Source: Thermotogota bacterium (GTDB lineage Bacteria > Bipolaricaulota > Bipolaricaulia > UBA7950 > UBA9294). Taken from it: a stretch of 10,602 bases of DNA. Below are positions 357 through 10,602 of the stretch, one piece after another. The notes under the pieces were generated by a model. The model had not been told where the DNA came from and did not search any database. It saw only the letters and a list, made by a program, of their open reading frames with translations. The DNA is taken from the NCBI GenBank assembly GCA_039679545.1, contig JBDKUT010000126.1, forward strand, positions 1-10,602. The letters run 5' to 3'. Position 1 is the first letter of the stretch. Each line of letters begins with the position of its first letter. A program made the translations under genes and the position numbers.

Positions 357-1130
357 CTAGCCTCCTTTCGTCCCGTGGACGGCGGCAACAAGGGAACGCA
401 CCACGGCCGCCGGATCCTTCGCTCCGAACACCGTTCGCCCGAAGGCGACCCCCGCCGCGCCACGTCGGACGGCCTCCCGCGCGGTCCCCACGGGGTCCTC
501 GGCCGTCGCCCCGCCGGCGACGAGCACGGGAAGCGGGCAACTCTTGGGAACCTCGGCGAACGTCGGCTCTCCGGCGCCGTACACCTTAACGACGTCCGCT
601 CCGAGCTCGTAGGCGACGCGTGCGCCGCGCGCGATCGACGGGATGTCGTTTGACTTGGCAGGGTCAGCAATCAGCATCTCGGCAACGAGCGGCATCCCCC
701 AGCGATCGCAATCGGCGGCGATCTCCGCGAGGAGGGCGAGCGACGCCGCCTCGCCCGAGCTTCCAAGGAAGCCCATCGCGATCACGGCGTCGGCGCCGAG
801 TGCCGCAGCGCGCTCGACCGAGGCGATCGGCCGGTGGTAGTCGAAGATCGGGTTTGCGTCAGTGCTCGCGCCTGTGATGCGCAGGATGAGGGCGCACCGG
901 CCGGCGTAGCGGGAGACGCAATCTCTGAGGGCCCCGGGGTTCAGGATCACCCCGTCTGCGCCGCCGCTTGCCGCCTGCTCGACCGCTTCGGGCATCGACC
1001 GCAGGCCGTCCATCGGGCCCTTGAACTGGGCGTGGTCGAGGGCGATCACGACCGCCCTCCGGTCGTTACGGAACAGCCGCGCCAGACGCGTCGTTTTTCC
1101 GATAATTTCGATCTCCTTAGCCGCACGCAC
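357..1130 (-). CDS. Class I (DhnA/LsrF/ADH-synthase-like) aldolase; true start may be ATT at 1106
   Basis: GKxxRLxRLF N-terminus, IALDH, GADAV, ARVAYELGADVVK (Schiff-base Lys), PVLVAGG and GVAFGRTVF motifs. Confidence 0.88.
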   Translation of the reverse strand: MRAAKEIEIIGKTTRLARLFRNDRRAVVIALDHAQFKGPMDGLRSMPEAVEQAASGGADGVILNPGALRDCVSRYAGRCALILRITGASTDANPIFDYHRPIASVERAAALGADAVIAMGFLGSSGEAASLALLAEIAADCDRWGMPLVAEMLIADPAKSNDIPSIARGARVAYELGADVVKVYGAGEPTFAEVPKSCPLPVLVAGGATAEDPVGTAREAVRRGAAGVAFGRTVFGAKDPAAVVRSLVAAVHGTKGG

Positions 1131-2098
1131 GTTCCCCCGGGAATCAGTGTCGACGTGAGCAGGAGCGAGTCTTCGCTCCCGTCGAGAAGGCGGCGCCCCG
1201 CTTCCTGTCCAATCGCGTACGCGGGGACCTCGACCGTCGTTAACTGGGGCCGGACGAGGGCCGCCCAGGGGACGTGGTCGAAGCCGGCGACGCCAAGGTC
1301 GTCGGGAACGATGAGGCCGCGGTCCTCGGCAGCCCGGATCGCGCCGATGGCCATCAGGTCGTTGGCCGCGATCACGGCGTCGACCGAGCGCCGACCGAGG
1401 AGGGCCGAAGCGTGGTCGTACCCGGACTGGAACGTGAACTGGCCCCGCACGACGGCGGCGGGCGCTCGGCTGGCCGTCCTCATCGCGTCGCGGAATCCGG
1501 CCAGCCGATCCTCGGCGGTGCTGACCTCCTCCGGACCGGCAATGTAGGCAATCTCGCGGTATCCGAGGTCGAGGAGGTACGTCGCCAAGTCGCAGCTCCC
1601 ACCGACGTTGTCCGCGTCCACGGTCGTCAGCCCGTTCACGCGGCGGTCGGCGACGATGACCCGGACCCCCCGATCCGTCAAACGCTGCACGAGGTCGAGG
1701 TCAGGGCGCCCGACGGGGACGAAGACGATCCCGTCCACACCCTCCGAGAGCAGGAAGTCGAGGTAGGCCGACTCGCGGTCCGCCTCGTGATTGCTGTCGC
1801 AGACGAGGGTCGAGAACCCCTCCGTGAACGCTACAGACTCGACGCCCCGTGTCAGGAGGGAGAAGTAGAGGTTCGAGATGTCGGGGATGAGCACGCCGAG
1901 CGCCTGGGTCTTCCGGCGGCGGAGTCGCTGCGCCGCTCGAACCGGCGTGTAGTCGAGCTCCTTGATGGAGGCGAGGATCCGCTCTTTCGTCTCCGGCCGC
2001 ATATGGTCTGCGTCTTGGCCATTGAGAACACGGGACACCGTGCTCGGAGAAACACCCGCGTGCGCCGCAACGTCGCGAATCGAGATCCGCTGGTCCAT
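1046..2098 (-). CDS. LacI/GalR-family transcriptional regulator
   Basis: HTH ISIRDVAAHAGVSPSTVSRVLN; ligand-binding domain motifs IPDISNLYF, IAANDLMAIG, VPDDLGVAGFD, PQLTTV. ATG at 2098 is preferred over GTG at 2107. Confidence 0.95.
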   Translation of the reverse strand: MDQRISIRDVAAHAGVSPSTVSRVLNGQDADHMRPETKERILASIKELDYTPVRAAQRLRRRKTQALGVLIPDISNLYFSLLTRGVESVAFTEGFSTLVCDSNHEADRESAYLDFLLSEGVDGIVFVPVGRPDLDLVQRLTDRGVRVIVADRRVNGLTTVDADNVGGSCDLATYLLDLGYREIAYIAGPEEVSTAEDRLAGFRDAMRTASRAPAAVVRGQFTFQSGYDHASALLGRRSVDAVIAANDLMAIGAIRAAEDRGLIVPDDLGVAGFDHVPWAALVRPQLTTVEVPAYAIGQEAGRRLLDGSEDSLLLTSTLIPGGTCVRLRRSKLSEKRRVWRGCSVTTGGRS

Positions 2099-2133
2099 TC
2101 GCCGCACCTTCTCCGAGAATCTGCGGTACTTGA

Positions 2134-2160
2134 GGAAAACGTTTTCCGAAAACGTTATCC
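2134..2160. promoter_or_regulatory. Two tandem LacI-type operators
   Basis: Perfect 14-bp palindrome GGAAAACGTTTTCC (2134-2147), abutting a near-copy GAAAACGTTATCC (2148-2160). The central AACGTT is typical of LacI-family sites, and both lie just downstream of the -10 box of the lacI-type gene. Confidence 0.85.
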
Positions 2161-4256: not shown

Positions 4257-6397
4257 CGACTGCCTCCCCACTCTCTTGTTGGTGACGCGTTGCGCCTCAC
4301 GGCGCGCGCGTCTCCTACCACGAGCCCAAGCTCACCAAGGAACACAGGGTTCAAGTCCAACTCCTCGAGATCGGTGTACCGGAATGGAAGCCGGGACACG
4401 TCCGCAACGAGGACTGCAGCCACGTTGAGATCTCGGGGCGCGGCTCCTCGCGCCCCTTGCAGGATCGCGGCGCCGCGCAGCTCGTCGAGCATCTTCCGTG
4501 CCTCGGCGGCGCCCACTGGTGCGACGCGAAGCGACACGTCACGGAAGACCTCGGTGTACACGCCACCCAGGCCAACGGCGATCACCGACCCGAACTGCGG
4601 ATCGTGCGACAGCCCGACGAGGAGCTCGACCGCGCCGCGCACCATCGGCGCCGCAAGGACACCGCGAAATGCCTCCCCCCCGATGCGGCGCAGCCGGTCG
4701 AACGCCTCGCGCGCTTCGGCCTCTGTTTCGACGCCAAGGATCACGCCGCCGACGTCCGTCTTGTGCGAGATTCCCGACGCCACAAGCTTCAGAACGATGG
4801 ATCCGCCGAGCGCGCCAACCGCGTCGGCCGCTTCGTTGGCCGACGCCACGAGTCGCCGCTCCGGGGTCGGAATCCCTTCGCCCTCCAGCCAATCGAGAAC
4901 CTCGGGTTCCAGTCCCTCCCCCCTCCACGGCAGACGTTGGCTCTCTCGCTCGGTTTGCACTGCGAACCGCGCACTGCGAACTTCGCACCGCGCGCTCTCA
5001 TGGCGCGCAACCTCCGCGATCACGGTATCGTCAGCCGAAGCGCACAACGCTTCGGCCCTAGCTGTCCACGCGGCGATCCTAGAGATCACGTGGACAGCCC
5101 GCTCCCCTGTGGCGAAGTTCGGCACCCCGCCTTCCTTCAGAACCGGGAGCCCCGTTGCGACCGTCTTCCCCGCCATGAAGCACGCCGCCACGGGCTTGCG
5201 GGTCGCCCGCGCCGCCGCGACGACTCCCCGCGCGATCGGCGCTGCATCGATGTACGGGGTGTTCACGTCGATCGCGAGCGCGGCGTCCGCCTCGTCGAGC
5301 GCCGCCACGAGGGCCTCGCGGTATCCGTCCTCTGTCCCCTGCACGGTGAGGTCGATCGGGTTCGCGAGCGAGCCGAGCGTCGACAGGTGCGGCGACGCCT
5401 GCAGCCCTGCACGGAGCGCCTCGCTCGGGGCCGCCACCTCGAGGCCCGCCGCCTCCGCGGCGTCGGCGGCAAGGACTCCTGGGCCGCCGGAGTTCGTCAC
5501 GATGACAAGGCGCTTCCCACGAACCGGCGGCAGCGTCGTGAACCCGCGACACAAGTCGAACATCTCCTCGACTCCGGCGACGCGGATCGCTCCGCACTGA
5601 CGTAGAGCGGCGTCGTAGACGGCGTCCGACCCGGCGAGCGACCCGGTGTGCGACAGCGCCGCGCGCACCCCCGACAGCGACCGTCCCGACTTGATCACGA
5701 CGAGCGGTTTCACCGCGGTGAGGCGCGCCGCCGCGTCGAGGAACGCGCGCCCGTTCGAGACCGTTTCCACGTAGAGCGCCACGACCTTCGTCTCCACGTC
5801 CGTCGCCAGGACGTCAAGGAAGTCGACGTCGGTGAGATCGACGCCGTTCCCATAGCTCACGAACTTCGAGAACCCCACGCCTTGCTCCTCGGCCCACGAG
5901 AGGACCGCGCCGCCGAGCGCGCCGCTCTGCGACACGAACGCCACGTCGCCCGACGGAGGCCGCGTCTCGAGCGTCGGGAAGAGGCGAGCCTTCGTGTTCA
6001 CGATCCCGGCGCAGTTCGGCCCCACGATTCGCAAAGCGAATCGTTCAGCAACTTGCTGGAGAGCTTGCTCTCCAGCTACGTTGCCAACCTCGGAGAACCC
6101 GGCCGTGAGGACGACGGCGACCTTGGCGCCGGCGCGGCCCGCGTCCTCGATCACGCCCTGCACGGTGTCCGCCGGAGACGCGACGACGACGAGGTCGGGA
6201 GCTTCGGGGATCTCGCCGATCGATCGAAAACCCGGGACGCCAAGTACACCTTGCCCTTTCGGACCCACGACCGACACGCGGCCGAAACCGCCGCCGAGAA
6301 GTTGCTCGATCAGCACGCAGCCGAGCTTTCCCGGCGACGCCGAGCCGACGACGGCCACGGACCTGGGTTCGAACAGCGCCTGGACCCAAGACATCAC
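4253..6397 (-). CDS. ADP-forming acyl-CoA synthetase (acetate-CoA ligase family), fused alpha/beta
   Basis: PRSVAVVG, GPNCAG, SQSGALG, SHTGSLAG (phospho-His), TNSGGPG, NPIDL; ATP-grasp motifs HKTDVGGV, DPQFG, ELDLNP. Confidence 0.93.
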   Translation of the reverse strand: MMSWVQALFEPRSVAVVGSASPGKLGCVLIEQLLGGGFGRVSVVGPKGQGVLGVPGFRSIGEIPEAPDLVVVASPADTVQGVIEDAGRAGAKVAVVLTAGFSEVGNVAGEQALQQVAERFALRIVGPNCAGIVNTKARLFPTLETRPPSGDVAFVSQSGALGGAVLSWAEEQGVGFSKFVSYGNGVDLTDVDFLDVLATDVETKVVALYVETVSNGRAFLDAAARLTAVKPLVVIKSGRSLSGVRAALSHTGSLAGSDAVYDAALRQCGAIRVAGVEEMFDLCRGFTTLPPVRGKRLVIVTNSGGPGVLAADAAEAAGLEVAAPSEALRAGLQASPHLSTLGSLANPIDLTVQGTEDGYREALVAALDEADAALAIDVNTPYIDAAPIARGVVAAARATRKPVAACFMAGKTVATGLPVLKEGGVPNFATGERAVHVISRIAAWTARAEALCASADDTVIAEVARHESARCEVRSARFAVQTERESQRLPWRGEGLEPEVLDWLEGEGIPTPERRLVASANEAADAVGALGGSIVLKLVASGISHKTDVGGVILGVETEAEAREAFDRLRRIGGEAFRGVLAAPMVRGAVELLVGLSHDPQFGSVIAVGLGGVYTEVFRDVSLRVAPVGAAEARKMLDELRGAAILQGARGAAPRDLNVAAVLVADVSRLPFRYTDLEELDLNPVFLGELGLVVGDARAVRRNASPTREWGGSR
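4954..4995. repeat. Six degenerate heptamers in frame in the synthetase linker
   Basis: tttgcac tgcgaac cgcgcac tgcgaac ttcgcac cgcgcgc (42 bp, 14 codons). Confidence 0.65.
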
Positions 6398-7008
6398 GCG
6401 CGCCCTCCGTCAAGAGCCTTCTCGCCTGAGCGGAACGCCACGAGGTTCGCGTCCGCCGCCCGCGGCCACCGCGCAGCAATCGTCTTTTCCACGGCGTCCG
6501 CCCCGATGAGCTCGGACAGCACCGTCGCCGCGACGAGCGCACCGAGCGTGAAGACATTCGGGGACGCTGGCTTCCCGCCGACTGTGGGGCACAACGCCGG
6601 GTCGAGGAGGATCGGACGGGCTCCGGTCGCCGCGATCGCCTCGAGAACCCGCTCGCGGGTCGGGTACTCGTCGACGCCGAGCATGACGCCCGTCGGCTCC
6701 CAGACCGAGTCGTAGAGCACGAAAGCGCCTCCCGGCTTCGCGAACGCAAGACCTTTCAACGCCTCTGAACGCTCCATCGCCACCACCGCGTCCGCGCCGC
6801 CGACGCGGATCCTCGGGCCTGCGTCGCCCGCGCCGAGGCGAAGCTCGGCCTTCACGAACCCGCCGCGTTGCGCCATGCCTTTCGTCGGGGAGAACATCGC
6901 CTCGACGCCGCCCGCCGCGGCCGCGTCGAGGAGGATCTCGCCGATCGTCAAGACTCCCTGACCGCCCACGCCGATCAGGACAACATCACACCTAGTCGCA
7001 CGCGTCAC
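6394..7008 (-). CDS. iorB: Indolepyruvate:ferredoxin oxidoreductase beta subunit
   Basis: IGVGGQGVL, GMAQRGG, ERSEAL and NVFTLGAL motifs; GTGA overlap with the iorA stop. Confidence 0.9.
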   Translation of the reverse strand: MTRATRCDVVLIGVGGQGVLTIGEILLDAAAAGGVEAMFSPTKGMAQRGGFVKAELRLGAGDAGPRIRVGGADAVVAMERSEALKGLAFAKPGGAFVLYDSVWEPTGVMLGVDEYPTRERVLEAIAATGARPILLDPALCPTVGGKPASPNVFTLGALVAATVLSELIGADAVEKTIAARWPRAADANLVAFRSGEKALDGGRA

Positions 7009-9356
7009 GGTTGGCCTCCACGTCCCTTGTTGAAGCCCACTCTCGCCGGCTTCGACCCCAGCTGCTCACAGCTGACGTTCGGTGGGCAGCCCAGAGCGTG
7101 AGTAGGACAGGCCGTCGCGCACAGTCCGCATCCGTTGCACAGAGCCGCGTCCACCGTGATCCTCTCTCGGCCAGCAGAACCGGACGGTCCGGGCACTCGG
7201 TTCTGCCCTAACTGCTCGGCACCGTCGCTCGCCGAACAGCCAAGGGCCGGGCAGCCAGTCACTTTGATGCACCGCTTGCACAGCACGCACTTCGCAGCGT
7301 CGAAGGCGACTGCAGCAGCGGCGCCGTGGCGACGCGCCTGAATCGCGCACTCGCGACGGGCAAGAACAACCTTCACTCCCGGTTCTCTCAGGCCGTCGGC
7401 GAGAACGGTCGTCATCGCGGGCAGGTCGTAGGGATCGACGATGTCGAACCGATCGGCGCCAAGGGCGGGGAGGATGCGGGCGAGGTCGATGCGCCGACCG
7501 CCGGCCTGGAACGCGTCGTCCGTGCCCGGGTTCACCTGCATCCCCGTCATGGCGGTCCAACCGTTGTCCATGACGACGAGCGTAAGCGGCACGCGCCGTT
7601 GCACGGCGTTCAGGAGGCCCGGCATCCCTGCGTGGAAGAACGTCGAGTCGCCGATCGTGGCGATGACCGGAGTCTTGATGCCGGCGTGAACGTAGCCCTG
7701 CGCCAGGGAGACGCTCGACCCCATCGAGACCTCGTTCCATATCAGCTCGAACGGCGGGTTCATCCCGAGAATCGTGCAGCCGATGTCGCCGGTGACCATC
7801 ACGGCGTCCTTCGAGAGGCCCGCCTTCTTGATCGCCGCCTCGATCGCCATGTACGTCCCGCGGTGAGGACAACCAGCGCACACAGTGATGGGGCGGGGAG
7901 CGGGTTCAACGTCACCTCTCCGCCCCTGAGTATCACGAAGTGCGCTGGGGAGAACGGACGCGGTCCGTTCTCCTTTCAGGTCGTCCTCGGGGGGACGACC
8001 GACCCCGGCGCAAACCGTAATTGGCCGTGGAGCAGGCGTGGGCGATGCTCCACGGCTAGCGTCCTCTCTACCCGTTAGGTCTGCGAGGGGGAGAACCGTC
8101 GAAGATGGTTCTCCCTTAAGGTCGTGCTCGCCACCACGACCGGCACCGGCGCACACCGTGATGGGGCGAGGCGCCGCCTCGCAGACTGCGCCTCGCTCTT
8201 TGGGCTCACGGTTTGCGCTAGCGAGAACGGCCTTCGGCCCTTCTCGGCGCACAGGTGTGTCTTGGAGGGCAACCGATAGCCCCTCCACAACCTCGTCCAC
8301 CCCATACTCCCCGAGCCGCGACAGGGTCCCGTCGAGCTTCCCGACGATGCGGGCGTCGCTCTGGATCCGTCGCGCAGCAATCCACAACTCTCGCTCAAAG
8401 AACGGCTCCAGCTCTTCCAGAACAAGGACCGTGCCACAGTGGCGGAGGAGTGTCTCCGCCTCCTCTCGCGGGAAGGGCGTCGTCGCTACAGCCTTGAGGA
8501 TCGATACCTGTTCGGGTTTGAGCCCCGTGACGGCGAGCGCTTCGGTCAAGTAGGCGTAGGTCGACCCCACCGCAACGGCGCCGACGCCCCCGGGCTTGCC
8601 CGCGAGTCGAAGATCGTTCAGGCCCATTGCGCGGATCACGCCGCCGGCGACATTCAGCCGCTCGATCAGGTCCCGGTGCTGGTCAAGGCAGATCTTCGAC
8701 CCTGCCTTCGTGTAGCGGGCGATATCGCGTTCGAGGATGACACCACGGCCAAGTGCCGCGCCGCCGGACTCGCCAGCTCTCGTTTCACCGCCAGGTGGTT
8801 CTCCCGGCGCCAGTGTCGGCGGAGCCACTTCATCCGACACCTCGATGCAAGCACTGGTGAGCGCCACCGCCGTCGTGAGGCGAAGGAAGACGGGGGTTCG
8901 CGCCCGCTCGGAAACCTCGAACGCTGCGACGACGAACTCATAAGCCTCCGCCACCGACGACGGCTCGAGCATCGGAAGGTCCGAGAGGAGAGCGAACCCA
9001 CGCGAGTCCTGCTCCGCCATGCCGGCACTTACGCCGGGGTCGTCAACGACCAAGATAACGAGGCCGCCGTTCGTCCCGGAGTAGGCAATCGAGATCAGAG
9101 CGTCGTAGGCGACGTTCACCCCCGACATCTTCATCGTCGTGAGCGCTCGCTGGCCGGCCCACGCCGCACCGGCGGCAATCTCGAACGCGACCTTCTCGTT
9201 CGTCGACCACTCCACGTGTCGACCCGGAAGCTCCATCGTGAGCAGGTGCTCGACCACGCCCGTCGACGGAGTTCCTGGATACCCCGTGACAACTCGCACC
9301 CCTGACCGGAGTGCTCCCAGAGCGACAGCTTGGTTACCCGTGACGATTCGCCTCAT
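7005..9356 (-). CDS. iorA: Indolepyruvate:ferredoxin oxidoreductase alpha subunit, lengthened by in-frame insertions
   Basis: TGNQAVALG, GYPGTPST, EWSTNEKVA, EQDSR, CAGCPHR, GDIGC, GDSTFFHAG..DN (TPP motif) and two CxxCxxC...CP ferredoxin motifs. Confidence 0.93.
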   Translation of the reverse strand: MRRIVTGNQAVALGALRSGVRVVTGYPGTPSTGVVEHLLTMELPGRHVEWSTNEKVAFEIAAGAAWAGQRALTTMKMSGVNVAYDALISIAYSGTNGGLVILVVDDPGVSAGMAEQDSRGFALLSDLPMLEPSSVAEAYEFVVAAFEVSERARTPVFLRLTTAVALTSACIEVSDEVAPPTLAPGEPPGGETRAGESGGAALGRGVILERDIARYTKAGSKICLDQHRDLIERLNVAGGVIRAMGLNDLRLAGKPGGVGAVAVGSTYAYLTEALAVTGLKPEQVSILKAVATTPFPREEAETLLRHCGTVLVLEELEPFFERELWIAARRIQSDARIVGKLDGTLSRLGEYGVDEVVEGLSVALQDTPVRREGPKAVLASANREPKERGAVCEAAPRPITVCAGAGRGGEHDLKGEPSSTVLPLADLTGREDASRGASPTPAPRPITVCAGVGRPPEDDLKGERTASVLPSALRDTQGRRGDVEPAPRPITVCAGCPHRGTYMAIEAAIKKAGLSKDAVMVTGDIGCTILGMNPPFELIWNEVSMGSSVSLAQGYVHAGIKTPVIATIGDSTFFHAGMPGLLNAVQRRVPLTLVVMDNGWTAMTGMQVNPGTDDAFQAGGRRIDLARILPALGADRFDIVDPYDLPAMTTVLADGLREPGVKVVLARRECAIQARRHGAAAAVAFDAAKCVLCKRCIKVTGCPALGCSASDGAEQLGQNRVPGPSGSAGRERITVDAALCNGCGLCATACPTHALGCPPNVSCEQLGSKPARVGFNKGRGGQP
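7872..8246 (-). repeat. Three in-frame tandem units each ending in APRPITVCAG, built of stem-loops
   Basis: APRPITVCAG is encoded at 8145-8174, 8004-8033 and 7872-7901 (periods 141 and 132 nt). The spacers share DLKGE and VLP. Confidence 0.9.
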
Positions 9357-9514
9357 GGTCGACGGCCCACCTCTCGATCGCTCCTACACGCACGCAACAA
9401 GCTGTGACGTCTAGCCCACACGGGCGAATCGTGTAAGTGCGCCGCCGGCGCACGACGCGCGCCCAGCGCGCCGAGGGCCACCGCCTGATTACCCGTCACA
9501 ATCCGTCTCGTCAT
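9353..9514 (-). other. 53-aa upstream ORF beginning with a duplicate of the IorA N-terminus (leader peptide or gene-start relic)
   Basis: MTRRIVTGNQAVALGAL.. versus IorA MRRIVTGNQAVALGAL..; its TGA overlaps the iorA ATG (ATGA). Confidence 0.75.
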
Positions 9515-9536
9515 CTCACATTCCCACCGAACGATC

Positions 9537-9796
9537 CGCACACCCGCTCTCCCAACACGAACGTCGCACACAATGGTGCGGTGCGCTCTCGCGTGAGAAC
9601 CGAGCGCATAGACGCTACGCCCGTCCACGCACCGCACACGCCTCTCTCCCAACACGGACGTCGCACACGATGGTGCGTGCGCTCAACGACGTAGCGTCGT
9701 GAGCTTGGCTCTCGGCGCTTCGTCTTGGTGCCGAGAGCTTGCCTCCGACGTTCTCGCCGAGCGCATAGACGCTGCGTCCGTCCACACACTGCGCAC
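9537..9796. repeat. Imperfect tandem duplication (unit about 96 bp) with a variable central loop
   Basis: CTCTCCCAACACG(A/G)ACGTCGCACAC(A/G)ATGGTGCG occurs in units starting at 9537 and 9633; CCGAGCGCATAGACGCT occurs at 9600 and 9757. Confidence 0.85.
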
Positions 9797-9877: not shown

Positions 9878-10602
9878 TCACCATCTCCGATCCGGCCTCA
9901 CCACGGTGCGGCTACGTTCGACGGCCTTCAGCACACGATCGGGGGTGAGCGGAAGCTCGAAGATCCGTACCCCGAGCGCGTCGGCCAGCGCGTTCGCCAC
10001 GGCCGGCGCCGCCGGCGTCAAGGACGGCTCGCCAATCCCCTTCGCGCCGAACGGCCCAATGCCGGTCCCCGACTCAAGCGCAATCACCTCGGTGTCCGGG
10101 AAGTCGCAGGACGTCGGGATCAGGTACTCGGCGAACGACGGCGTCTTCGTCACCCCCCTGTCGACGACGTACTCCTCCATGAGCGCGTAGCCGAGTCCCT
10201 GATGGCTCCCGCCGGCGATCTGGCCACGCACCGCGGCGGGGTTGATGGCTCGGCCGACATCGTGGCAGGCGACGCACTTCAGAAGCTCGATCTCGCCCGT
10301 CTCTGTGTCCACGGCAATCTCGACCGCCTGGGCTCCAAACGTAAAGTCCGGCCAGATGTCGCCCTGTCCCGTCTCCGGGTCGATCCCGTCCGTGAACGGC
10401 GCGTTGAACTGGGCTAGATTGGCGAGTGGCAGGCCACTGGCAGCAGCTCTTGCCGCGACGTCCGAGAGCGGCAAGCGCTGAGCGCCAGTGGCTCGGGAGT
10501 TCCCGCCCGCGGGAACTCCTGGCTCATGTCGACTCGCCGCCACCTCCGCGAGCGGAATCCCGACCTGCTCTGGTCCGGTCTTCCCACCGTAGGTCTCGGC
10601 TT
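9878..10602 (-). CDS. Xanthine dehydrogenase/aldehyde oxidoreductase family molybdopterin-binding subunit, C-terminal part (5' end outside the window)
   Basis: The frame is open to the window edge. Motifs VDTETG, HDVGRAINP, GQIAGGSHQGLGYAL and GPFGAKGIGEP (catalytic Glu). Confidence 0.92.
   Translation of the reverse strand, partial: AETYGGKTGPEQVGIPLAEVAASRHEPGVPAGGNSRATGAQRLPLSDVAARAAASGLPLANLAQFNAPFTDGIDPETGQGDIWPDFTFGAQAVEIAVDTETGEIELLKCVACHDVGRAINPAAVRGQIAGGSHQGLGYALMEEYVVDRGVTKTPSFAEYLIPTSCDFPDTEVIALESGTGIGPFGAKGIGEPSLTPAAPAVANALADALGVRIFELPLTPDRVLKAVERSRTVVRPDRRW

What the first reader, a model, noticed from the sequence alone, without database searches (positions are those of the whole stretch)
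7949..8246. Compensatory base changes between hairpins of the repeat units
Seen: GGAGAACGGAC-GCG-GTCCGTTCTCC (7949-7973) versus GGGAGAACCGTC-GAA-GATGGTTCTCCC (8089-8115) show a G-C to C-G swap, an A-T to T-A swap and one G-T pair. GGTCGTCC/GGACGACC (7979-8000) versus GGTCGTG/CACGACC (8120-8141) show a C-G to G-C swap. A third variant, CGAGAA-C-GGCC-TTC-GGCC-C-TTCTCG (8222-8246), precedes copy 1. In these spacers the amino acids vary while pairing is kept. Inference: structure in RNA or ssDNA, not peptide, is what is maintained here, either by selection or by template-switch palindrome correction.
Basis: partly seen in the sequence, partly recalled or inferred. Interest (0 to 1): 0.78.

Follow-up and report, generated by a model that had tools for sequence, protein, structure and literature searches.

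The report
Hairpin DNA translated inside enzyme linker
The paired hairpins are real and keep their base pairing while the encoded amino acids change, but they sit in frame in a floppy linker of a metabolic enzyme gene and look mostly like tolerated palindromic DNA, a kind of thing already known from other bacteria.

Summary
Observation confirmed. The stretch folds far better than shuffles (z -7.0 sense, -8.4 antisense; control coding +0.2).

It lies inside an intact 783-aa gene on the minus strand, an IorA-like indolepyruvate:ferredoxin oxidoreductase of a Bipolaricaulota MAG. It falls in the predicted-disordered linker between the N-terminal domains and the TPP/Fe-S domain.

The repeat is three in-frame copies of the codons for PRPITVCAG, the last being the native copy. 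They are separated by 141- and 132-nt units, each with three hairpins.

Relatives carry 1, 2 or 3 copies. A two-copy haplotype coexists in a second sample.

Across 7 units, 12 of 30 stem pairs change on both sides (0 of 500 shuffles). One arm tracks synonymous changes in the conserved codons.

Evidence leans to DNA-level palindromes:
- Some arms are perfect inverted copies of neighbouring codons.
- Swaps include transversions, and G-U pairs are few.
- Close relatives show uncompensated mismatches.
- The GGAGAAC...GTTCTCC hairpin belongs to a low-copy hairpin family of this bacterial family.

Selection on mRNA structure is not excluded.

The scan has found in-frame palindromes in linkers on other DNA before, but not this sequence.

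The parts
7005..9356 (-). iorA-like gene, 783 aa, intact reading frame. Domains: POR_N 14-163, TPP_enzyme_C 524-660, 4Fe-4S 689-755. An iorB-like POR gene follows at 6394-7008.
7872..8277 (-). Whole hairpin-rich, in-frame linker array (residues about 360-495). Predicted disordered.
   Evidence: AlphaFold2 pLDDT is below 50 for residues 367-497.
8145..8277 (-). Pre-unit: hairpin HP0 (REGPKAVLA), a spacer, and the first extra copy (c0, 8145-8171) of the PRPITVCAG codons.
   Evidence: (model hit at 8145-8277, E 3.9e-4)
8004..8144 (-). Unit A, 141 nt (47 codons): HP2A, HP1A, spacer hairpin, and copy c1 (8004-8030).
   Evidence: 94 bits
7872..8003 (-). Unit B, 132 nt (44 codons): HP2B, HP1B, spacer, and copy c2 (7872-7898). 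c2 is the native copy and runs on into CPHRG.
   Evidence: 89.2 bits
7949..7973 (.). HP1B: 11-bp perfect stem, 3-nt loop. Read as GERTASVLP.
   Evidence: (I13)
8089..8115 (.). HP1A: 12-bp stem with one G.T (an A.C on the mRNA). Read as GEPSSTVLP.
   Evidence: (I12)
8222..8246 (.). HP0: 11-bp stem with one mismatch. Read as REGPKAVLA.
   Evidence: (I19)
7979..8000 (.). HP2B: GGTCGTCC/GGACGACC, 8 bp. Read as GRPPEDDL.
   Evidence: (I4)
8120..8141 (.). HP2A: GGTCGTG/CACGACC, 7 bp. Read as GRGGEHDL.
   Evidence: (I4)
8024..8056 (.). Spacer hairpin of unit A, 11-bp perfect arms. One arm encodes the APRP of copy c1, and the other arm is its inverted copy.
   Evidence: (I15)
8149..8218 (.). Long-range hairpin. 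The codons for ITVCA of copy c0 pair with an inverted copy that is read as SANRE. Arms of 13 nt, 92% complementary.
   Evidence: (I11)
7873..7948 (.). Long-range hairpin. The codons of the native copy c2 pair with an inverted copy that is read as SALRD. Arms of 17 nt, 82% complementary.
   Evidence: (I6)
7174..7206 (-). Second in-frame hairpin insert in the same gene, GCAGAACCG...CGGTTCTGC (9-bp stem), between the two Fe-S cluster motifs.
   Evidence: Read off the sequence. The homologous insert in G151 has tandem GGAGAAT...ATTCTCC hairpins.

Best explanation
The hairpins are short DNA palindromes that lie in frame in a disordered inter-domain linker of IorA and are translated as passenger peptide.

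Shown:
- The linker is an array of three copies of the codons for PRPITVCAG, which begins the TPP/Fe-S domain. The copies are separated by units that each hold three hairpins.
- One hairpin type, GGAGAAY-top-loop-top-RTTCTCC, belongs to a low-copy hairpin family. Members occur elsewhere in this genome and across this Bipolaricaulota family, including other inter-domain junctions.
- Other hairpins have one arm that is an exact inverted copy of the neighbouring conserved codons.

Inferred:
- The palindromes are made, and re-made perfect, at the DNA level, either by template switching (fold-back copying of one arm from the other) or by replacement with fresh copies.
- This yields instant 'compensatory' changes of any kind. 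The peptide is free to drift because the linker has no fold.
- Unit number goes up and down by unequal recombination between the repeated PRPITVCAG codons.
- Units A and B are probably diverged versions of one module, joined in tandem by such an event.

On this reading the structure is a property of the DNA's mutational history, not a selected RNA signal.
For: Location and frame:
- The gene has an intact 783-aa frame and IorA domains.
- AlphaFold2 gives pLDDT below 50 and no secondary structure for residues 367-497.

Copy number varies:
- 18 of the 120 listed homologues have 2 or more copies of the motif. Only this protein has 3.
- G005 has 2 copies and P0003 has 1, at 85-86% protein identity.
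- In run X2, one contig covers unit B exactly (7824-8011, 0 differences, depth 3.6). Another covers 8004-8600 (1 difference, depth 6.48) and, before 8004, runs straight into CPHRGTYMAI codons with 4 synonymous differences in 30 letters. That is a coexisting two-copy form.

DNA-level palindrome making:
- 9 of 106 distinct linkers carry a perfect inverted copy, 9-14 nt long, of the RPITVCAG codons just upstream. All 9 are hairpin-rich linkers of this type. The overall mean is 5.9 nt against 5.4 nt in codon shuffles.
- Orthologous HP2 hairpins share the identical loop GTTGCGAG but have stems GGTCGTC/GACGACC, GGTGGTC/GACCACC and GGTCGTG/CACGACC. These are transversion swaps that cannot pass through G-U.
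- Of 210 stem cells, 186 are Watson-Crick, 8 are G.U, 2 are A.C and 14 are other.
- Family members have loops GAA and TTC, which are inverse complements of each other.

Not strictly maintained:
- Window and G005 differ by uncompensated stem changes.
- 8106 is C in G005, X3 and X4.

Hairpin family:
- GGAGAAC...GTTCTCC is the most enriched inverted 7-mer pair in the genome: 12 observed, 1.28 expected, Poisson 1.2e-8.
- In 74 genomes of the family it occurs 114 times against 18 for the control pattern (my sum of the table).
- The same hairpin type lies in frame at the CoxM-CoxS junction in G000 (C48) and G005, with different complementary tops, and in an ACS alpha-beta linker in G178.

Parallel case: in two Chloroflexota genomes the iorA-linker hairpin is a copy of a genome-wide palindromic repeat, 88 and 112 copies against 0 for the control.

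Literature: template switching can create perfect stems and compensatory changes in one step (PMC8794818, passages read). Intragenic REPs and in-frame RPEs are known (PMC3733652 and PMC10969869, passages read).
Against: - The hairpins persist across genera, and 12 of 30 pairs covary. This includes pairs whose 3' partner is a synonymous site of a conserved codon. Pure neutral decay would not give that unless re-copying is frequent.
- Between G000 and G005 the linker differs at only 3 of 35 four-fold sites, against about a third of such sites in the flanks. A second low-divergence block, residues 691-735, coincides with the other hairpin insert. This fits nucleotide-level purifying selection as well as recent recombination.
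- G.U outnumbers A.C on the mRNA strand, 8 to 2. This is weak and not significant, but it points toward RNA.
- The whole unit is not a dispersed element. 16 of the 19 model hits in 74 genomes lie in iorA.
- The hairpin family is low-copy, at 0-12 per genome.
- The genome's one Y1 transposase gene has no such hairpins beside it, so no mobilising enzyme is identified.
- No ancestral reconstruction was done, so no single template-switch event is demonstrated.
- The extra PRPITVCAG copies keep their amino acids through many synonymous changes. A pure 'junk' reading does not explain this without invoking repeated recombination with native copies.
Confidence: 0.5

Rival explanations
1. The hairpins are selected mRNA structures. 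Placed between the two halves of the enzyme, they would slow the ribosome, or stabilise or process the message, just before the Fe-S-binding CxxC motif is made. Selection keeps the pairing and ignores the peptide.
For: - Covariation is seen in all three helices.
- The fold z-score is -7.0 on the sense strand.
- Third codon positions in the linker are more conserved than first and second positions, and far more conserved than silent sites in the flanks.
- G.U outnumbers A.C on the sense strand, 8 to 2.
- Hairpins sit at the same gene position in two phyla.
- The same hairpin type occurs at other subunit junctions, CoxM|CoxS and ACS alpha|beta.
Against: - Orthologues in several genera have no hairpins at this site (G013, G009, G007, G010).
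- Close relatives carry uncompensated mismatches.
- Stems are almost all perfect Watson-Crick, with 3-nt loops and transversion swaps.
- Some arms are exact inverted copies of neighbouring codons.
- In Chloroflexota the hairpin is simply the genome's common repeat.
- There is no Rfam match.
- No RNA data are available. The one RNA run laid (X21) does not cover the stretch, so this says nothing either way.
Confidence: 0.25
2. The repeated module has a protein-level role, and the hairpins are incidental. For example, the extra PRPITVCAG segments could serve as spare or decoy N-terminal strands of the Fe-S/TPP domain.
For: - Non-native copies of PRPITVCAG differ from each other almost only at synonymous sites. 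For example, the first copy in L051 and in the window differ by 6 synonymous and 0 non-synonymous changes.
- At the protein level the extra copy is conserved in 18 of the 120 listed homologues.
Against: - The rest of each unit shows no protein-type constraint.
- The linker is predicted disordered.
- Copy number is 1, 2 or 3 among close relatives and within one population.
- The extra copies lack the second cysteine of the CxxC motif.
- Repeated unequal recombination with native copies would also keep the amino acids (inference).
Confidence: 0.1
3. The units are copies of a mobile miniature element (REP/MITE/RPE-like) that transposed into the gene, and the repeated PRPITVCAG codons are a target duplication.
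For: - The insertion is in frame and palindromic, as in RPEs and intragenic REPs.
- A hairpin family is present genome-wide.
- The Chloroflexota parallel fits this reading.
Against: - The full unit is found only in iorA: 16 of 19 model hits, and the other 3 are single hairpins. BLAST finds no other copy in the genome.
- A 27-30-nt 'target duplication' with different synonymous codons is unlike any known transposition.
- There is no GTAG or CGTC tag.
- No hairpin-flanked Y1 transposase was found.
Confidence: 0.1
4. The tandem array is an assembly artefact, a chimera of two strains' alleles.
For: Two haplotypes coexist in run X2 and branch exactly at copy c1.
Against: - A contig from X2, a different sample, spans 7824-8011 without a difference. 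It joins CPHRG, copy c2, all of unit B and the first 8 letters of c1, including its distinctive CCC.
- The reading frame is intact.
- Two-copy forms are assembled independently in several genomes and metagenomes.
Confidence: 0.04

Closest known systems
Intragenic REPs and Rickettsia palindromic elements (RPE): palindromic repeats inserted in frame in protein-coding genes (Ogata et al. 2000, as cited in PMC10969869; Di Nocera et al. 2013, PMC3733652)
   Same: - Short hairpin-forming DNA is read through in frame.
- It adds 20-50 residues in a permissive part of a known enzyme.
- The same site is hit in different lineages.
- Singles, dimers and grouped repeats all occur.
- The hairpin type is shared with non-coding copies elsewhere in the genome.
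   Different: - There is no GTAG or CGTC tag.
- The family is very low-copy (12 in this genome).
- The full 132-141-nt unit is confined to one gene.
- Units are separated by repeated copies of the host gene's own conserved codons.
- Some arms are inverted copies of those codons rather than imported sequence.
Template-switch mutations that create and maintain hairpins (Monttinen and Loytynoja, PNAS 2022, PMC8794818)
   Same: - Perfect stems occur next to their reverse-complement source.
- Compensatory changes of any base type occur.
- Loops appear in both orientations.
   Different: - That work concerns RNA genes. Here the hairpins lie in a protein-coding linker.
- No ancestral reconstruction was done here, so the events are inferred from present-day sequences only.
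Coding minisatellites or tandem repeats in protein linkers that change copy number by unequal recombination or slippage (general knowledge, recalled)
   Same: - The units are in frame, 44-47 codons long.
- 1-3 copies are seen among close relatives and within a population.
   Different: The units are only 73% identical, are built of palindromes, and are bounded by a conserved catalytic-domain motif.

Membership tests
IorA (indolepyruvate:ferredoxin oxidoreductase alpha subunit) | POR_N, TPP_enzyme_C and 4Fe-4S domains in one chain, with an iorB (POR gamma-like) gene next to it | tested here: met
   Pfam matches: POR_N 3.4e-15, TPP_enzyme_C 4.9e-17, Fer4 8.6e-09. The gene downstream has a POR domain, 1.1e-27. 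Sources name the homologues IorA. Substrate was not tested.
GTAG/CGTC-tagged REPs (Di Nocera et al. 2013) | Tetranucleotide GTAG or CGTC at one end of the stem-loop | tested here: not met
   The stems begin GGAG and end CTCC. The flanks are CTGG/TTTC and AGGG/CTTA. CGTC occurs only at the stem top of HP1A.
GTAG/CGTC-tagged REPs (Di Nocera et al. 2013) | Dispersed family of many copies per genome | tested here: inconclusive
   This genome has 12 copies against 1.28 expected. The 74 family genomes have 0-12 each, 114 against 18 for the control in total. The pattern is enriched but low-copy.
REP/RAYT systems (REPtrons) | A Y1 (RAYT) transposase gene flanked by the repeats | tested here: not met
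   There is one Y1_Tnp gene, at C150:26948-27274. No hairpin of the family lies within 1.5 kb on either side.
Rickettsia palindromic elements (RPE) | A palindromic element of about 100-150 bp inserted in frame in many unrelated genes | tested here: not met
   In frame: yes. In unrelated genes: no for the unit, since 16 of the 19 covariance-model hits in 74 genomes lie in iorA. Only the single 25-nt hairpin type recurs elsewhere.
Template-switch-generated hairpins | One arm is a reverse-complement copy of adjacent pre-existing sequence | tested here: met
   Perfect inverted copies of the conserved RPITVCAG codons, 9-14 nt long, lie upstream in 9 of 106 linkers. The codon-shuffle mean is 5.4 nt.
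Template-switch-generated hairpins | Several linked changes, or a loop inversion, arising on one branch of a tree | not tested
   No ancestral reconstruction was done. Only present-day variants were seen: GAA and TTC loops and transversion swaps.
Structured cis-acting RNA | Covariation that supports the helices | tested here: met
   12 of 30 pairs change on both sides, 0 of 500 shuffles, and slid controls pair at 35-46%. Caveat: the structure was derived from these same sequences.
Structured cis-acting RNA | Strand-specific G-U tolerance, transcript evidence, or a known family | tested here: inconclusive
   8 G.U against 2 A.C on the sense strand. No Rfam match at E up to 1 other than chance-level hits. 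No RNA run covers the stretch.
Intrinsic terminator | GC-rich stem followed by a T tract | tested here: not met
   None of these hairpins is called a terminator on either strand in 6800-9600.

The most novel reading that the evidence does not exclude
The GGAGAAY...RTTCTCC hairpins could be a functional nucleic-acid signal of this Bipolaricaulota family, placed at the junctions between formerly separate subunits that are now fused in one reading frame: IorA N-half|TPP-FeS half, CoxM|CoxS and ACS alpha|beta. It would be a translated relic of intercistronic hairpins that still acts on the mRNA, as a ribosome pause before cofactor-binding motifs or as a processing or stability site. Selection would keep it as structure, with a fixed base and a free but complementary top, while the encoded peptide drifts.
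Probability: 0.15. Interest if true: 0.75.

Novelty: new variant of a known kind. Interest (0 to 1): 0.45.

Why it matters
This is a clean natural case in which nucleic-acid pairing and peptide sequence are visibly uncoupled inside a working enzyme gene.

- It shows how a disordered linker can grow by palindromes and by repeats of the neighbouring conserved codons.
- It offers a test bed for a live question: do 'compensatory' stem changes come from selection on RNA, or from template-switch copying in DNA?
- For annotation, it warns that covariation alone does not prove a functional RNA, and that odd peptide repeats such as GE....VLP in these proteins are translated hairpins.

If the junction-signal reading were true, it would be a new kind of coding-sequence-embedded regulatory element.

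Tried and rejected
- Rfam scan of the whole window at E up to 1: only three chance-level hits (mir-515 on both strands, flg-Rhizobiales), all far below gathering scores.
- BLAST of 7880-8260 against the window's own genome: no second copy, only short hairpin-like hits with E of 0.1 or more.
- Survey of all perfect hairpins (stem of 9 or more, loop 3-8) in the genome: 304 distinct, against 105 in one mononucleotide shuffle that was not de-duplicated. No high-copy family appeared. My crude coding/non-coding split (157 inside ORF-like frames, 28 near ORF ends, 119 outside) was not decisive.
- Terminator and promoter scan: the hairpins are not terminator-like.
- RAYT link: one Y1 transposase gene, with no family hairpins beside it.
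- Protein-level test for recombination (N-half against C-half identity to 15 homologues): no incongruence seen.
- RNA evidence: the RNA run from the same study (X21) laid only one 36-nt piece of something else, so nothing can be said about expression.
- Metagenome and genome scans for the duplicated motif mostly returned single-copy iorA genes. Only L051, L052, L131/L022 and L132 had full-length matches.
- Considered from the sequence and set aside: ribosomal bypassing (the frame is open throughout, so none is needed), an intein (too short), and a DGR or retron (no reverse transcriptase nearby; differences are not adenine-specific).
- Literature: 'Bipolaricaulota' plus 'palindromic' gave 2 papers, both on defence systems (listing only). 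'Repetitive extragenic palindrom' / 'within coding' / 'compensatory' gave nothing on this case (listing only).
Full report
**What is there**

- HP1B, 7949-7973: 11-bp perfect arms.
- HP1A, 8089-8115: 12-bp arms with one G.T.
- HP2B, 7979-8000, and HP2A, 8120-8141.
- A third variant at 8222-8246 with one mismatch.
- Two 93-nt stretches, 141 nt apart, are 73% identical.

The region 7872-8160 folds far better than dinucleotide shuffles. It gives z -7.01 as mRNA sense and -8.35 as the other strand, with 0 of 200 shuffles as good. A control piece of the same gene gives z +0.17.

**Where it lies**

- The whole stretch is inside one intact 783-aa reading frame on the minus strand, 7005-9356.
- Pfam finds POR_N (14-163), TPP_enzyme_C (524-660) and 4Fe-4S domains (689-755).
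- The next gene has a POR domain. Further downstream are an ADP-forming acyl-CoA synthetase and an aminotransferase.
- Homologues are named IorA and come from Candidatus Bipolaricaulota.
- The hairpins fall in the linker between the N-terminal half and the TPP/Fe-S half. AlphaFold2, run on a 16-sequence alignment, gives pLDDT below 50 (block means 22-39) and no secondary structure for residues 367-497.

**Anatomy**

Read on the gene strand, the linker has this order:
1. HP0 (REGPKAVLA), a spacer, and copy c0 of the codons for PRPITVCAG.
2. Unit A: HP2A (GRGGEHDL), HP1A (GEPSSTVLP), a spacer hairpin, and copy c1.
3. Unit B: HP2B (GRPPEDDL), HP1B (GERTASVLP), a spacer, and copy c2.
4. CPHRG follows c2. 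Copy c2 is the native start of the Fe-S/TPP domain.

Each HP1-type hairpin, GGA GAA ... GTT CTC C, is read as G-E-x4-V-L. This explains the odd peptide motif seen in many homologues. Each copy of the ITVCAG codons also pairs with an inverted copy of itself a little upstream, read as SANRE, SALRD or SRGA (I6, I11, I15).

**Relatives**

- Of the 120 homologues listed, 18 have two or more copies of the motif. Only this protein has three. That list is biased toward insert-bearing proteins, because the query was the linker.
- In 184 genomes of the phylum, 23 (this genome included) have this iorA type, all in one family. Matches that also span the extra copy occur in G005, G137 and G176 besides this genome, the G176 match starting at model position 8 of 49.
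- Other genera (G013, G009, G007, G010) have short linkers without these hairpins.
- I extracted 107 distinct linker DNAs.
- Hairpins of the same type but with different complementary tops occur at the equivalent place in other lineages:
  - GAGAACCGTC/GACGGTTCTC
  - GGAGAACGGCC/GGCCGTTCTCC
  - CGAGAATCGCA/TGCGATTCTCG
  - CAAGAATCAGC/GCTGATTCTTG
  - GAGAATGCTC/GAGCATTCTC

**Covariation**

First test: 14 hairpins of 25 nt.
- 95.5% of stem cells pair, against 77.1% in shuffles.
- 8 of 11 pairs change on both sides, 0 of 500 shuffles.
- These 14 were picked because they are hairpins, so pairing is partly by construction.

Second, less biased test: 7 whole units chosen by their protein motif, with three helices.
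- 92.4% of cells pair, against 81.3% in shuffles and 35-46% with slid partners.
- 12 of 30 pairs change on both sides, 0 of 500 shuffles.
- In the third helix the 3' arm is the conserved TVCAG codons. Their synonymous sites are tracked by the upstream arm.
- The structure was derived from these same sequences, which inflates the 'paired' figure.

**Peptide or nucleic acid?**

Between this genome and G005:

| Region | Position 1+2 identity | Position 3 identity | Four-fold site identity |
|---|---|---|---|
| Flanking domains | 0.92-0.95 | 0.69 | 0.64-0.67 |
| Linker codons 366-428 | 0.889 | 0.937 | 0.914 (32 of 35) |

So in the hairpin parts the peptide is not the conserved thing.

The PRPITVCAG copies behave the other way. 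They differ almost only at synonymous sites. For example, the first copy in L051 and in the window differ by 6 synonymous and 0 non-synonymous changes.

**Selection or DNA-level copying?**

Several observations point to the DNA.
- (a) 9 of 106 linkers hold a perfect 9-14-nt inverted copy of the RPITVCAG codons just upstream. The other 97 have 4-8 nt, which is the level of codon shuffles (mean 5.4). Point mutation under selection is an unlikely way to build a 14-nt exact complement of a conserved coding segment. Fold-back or template-switch copying does it in one step (PMC8794818, passages read).
- (b) Orthologous HP2 hairpins with the identical loop GTTGCGAG have three different stems related by C-G/G-C swaps. 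The A/B differences in HP1 are also transversion swaps. Such swaps have no G-U intermediate.
- (c) Of 210 stem cells, 186 are Watson-Crick and only 8 are G.U, 3 of them at a terminal pair. 2 are A.C and 14 are other mismatches.
- (d) Maintenance is not strict. The window and G005 differ by uncompensated stem changes. The window's T8106 is C in G005 and in relatives from two other studies.
- (e) Loops GAA and TTC, which are inverse complements, both occur in the family.

Two observations point the other way.
- Silent divergence in the linker is about five times lower than in the flanks. A second low-divergence block, residues 691-735, coincides with the gene's other hairpin insert.
- The G.U to A.C ratio of 8:2 favours the mRNA strand.

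Recent recombination could also produce the low-divergence blocks. The first block runs from residue 349, inside the folded domain, to about residue 428.

**Copy number and recombination**

In run X2, a different sample of the study that probably gave the assembly, contigs tile the whole stretch.
- One contig covers 7824-8011 without a difference (depth 3.6).
- Another covers 8004-8600 with one difference (depth 6.48). Before 8004 it continues directly into CPHRGTYMAI codons that differ from the window's at 4 of 30 letters, all synonymous by my reading.
- So a two-copy haplotype lacking unit B coexists, and the two forms branch exactly at copy c1.

G005's native copy resembles the window's c1, not c2. 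P0003, at 85% identity, has one copy.

I infer that copy number changes by unequal recombination between the repeated codons. I also infer that units A and B may be diverged alleles joined in tandem. Identity of the N-half and the C-half to 15 homologues shows no incongruence, so this remains an inference.

**Is it a dispersed element?**

- It found 19 places in 12 genomes.
- 16 are in iorA genes, checked.
- The other 3 are lone HP1-type hairpins.
- The unit is therefore specific to this gene. BLAST finds no other copy in the genome.

The single hairpin type is a small family.
- GGAGAAC...GTTCTCC is the most enriched inverted 7-mer pair in this genome: 12 against 1.28 expected, Poisson 1.2e-8, uncorrected over 16,384 words.
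- It occurs 114 times against 18 for the control pattern across the 74 genomes (my sum).
- Most listed matches have further complementary bases inside, and several sit in local clusters (by eye).

Members lie in frame at other inter-domain junctions:
- The CoxM-like|CoxS-like junction, as GEPPRAVLQ in this genome (C48:3053-3077) and GERSSTVLP in G005, with different complementary tops.
- The alpha|beta linker of an ACS in G178, as TGETPKGVSP.
- The Fe-S insert of iorA in G151.

A telling parallel comes from two Chloroflexota genomes. The hairpin in their iorA linker (GAAACCNGGTTTTT...AAAAACCNGGTTTC) is simply a copy of a genome-wide palindromic repeat, at 88 and 112 copies against 0 for the control. 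This linker evidently accepts whatever hairpin DNA a genome carries.

**Comparison with known things**

In-frame palindromic repeats are known.
- RPEs in Rickettsia (PMC10969869, passages read).
- Intragenic GTAG/CGTC REPs, often dimers encoding 20-30 residues, sometimes at the same site of a gene in different species (PMC3733652, passages read).

This scan has logged many such cases in linkers of other genes in other genomes, but not this DNA.

Membership in the tagged REP families fails.
- There is no GTAG or CGTC tag.
- Copy number is low.
- The one Y1 transposase gene has no such hairpins beside it.

Three things differ from the known cases:
- Repeated copies of the host's own conserved codons act as unit boundaries.
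- Some arms are copied from those codons.
- The result is a polymorphic coding array.

My two literature searches found no description of this hairpin family in Bipolaricaulota.

**Verdict**

- The inference 'structure, not peptide' holds for the hairpins but not for the repeated motif.
- The most likely cause is DNA-level palindrome formation and recombination in a tolerant linker (about 0.5).
- Selected mRNA structure is a live rival (about 0.25).
- This is a new variant of a known kind, of moderate interest.

Noticed in passing
L165 and L189 (iorA linkers of two Chloroflexota genomes, G184 and G185): The 15-bp-stem hairpin in their iorA linkers (read as KETWFFEKNQVS / EETGFFPKNPVS) is a copy of a genome-wide palindromic repeat. 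Copy numbers are 88 and 112, against 0 for the control. The stem centre is mostly A/T in one genome and G/C in the other.
   Followed up: partly
own genome C48:3053-3077, and G005:C97:6627-6651 (L253): CoxM-like and CoxS-like reading frames run into each other without a stop, through a GGAGAAC-type hairpin read as GEPPRAVLQ or GERSSTVLP. The two congeners have different complementary stem tops.
   Followed up: partly
L244 (G178:C105, about 4787-4851): A GGGAGAAACGCC-TAAA-GGCGTTTCTCC hairpin is read in frame as TGETPKGVSP. It lies in the linker between the CoA-ligase half and the ATP-grasp half of an ADP-forming acyl-CoA synthetase.
   Followed up: no
own genome C133:14769-15441 and C91:44-420; window 10496-10519: A second enriched hairpin family, GGAGTTC...GAACTCC (11 observed, 1.36 expected). 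Most copies sit in spacers of tRNA gene clusters. One perfect 11-bp copy lies in the window inside the MoCoBD_2 reading frame.
   Followed up: partly
own genome C133:15170-15560: Next to real tRNA genes there are three tandem units of about 159 nt. Each contains what looks like a tRNA 3' half followed by a strong hairpin.
   Followed up: no
window 7174-7206 (residues about 717-728 of IorA): A second in-frame hairpin insert lies between the two Fe-S cluster motifs. Residues 691-735 also form a block of unusually low silent-site divergence from G005 (third-position identity 0.93).
   Followed up: partly
window 2134-2160: A near-perfect 13-nt inverted repeat, GGAAAACGTTTTC/GAAAACGTTATCC, lies just upstream of the LacI-family regulator gene (1046-2107, minus strand). 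It is probably an operator.
   Followed up: no
protein P0039 (homologue), C-terminus: Three tandem copies of a peptide of about 23 residues (RERLGEKRQPNDRFSKDQTQNGH-like) are appended to the IorA C-terminus. Related LGEKP/LGSKP tails occur in this protein and in several homologues, and they may be translated hairpins as well.
   Followed up: no
own genome C150:26948-27274 (L254): A single Y1 (IS200/RAYT-like) transposase gene of 287 aa has no flanking hairpin repeats.
   Followed up: partly
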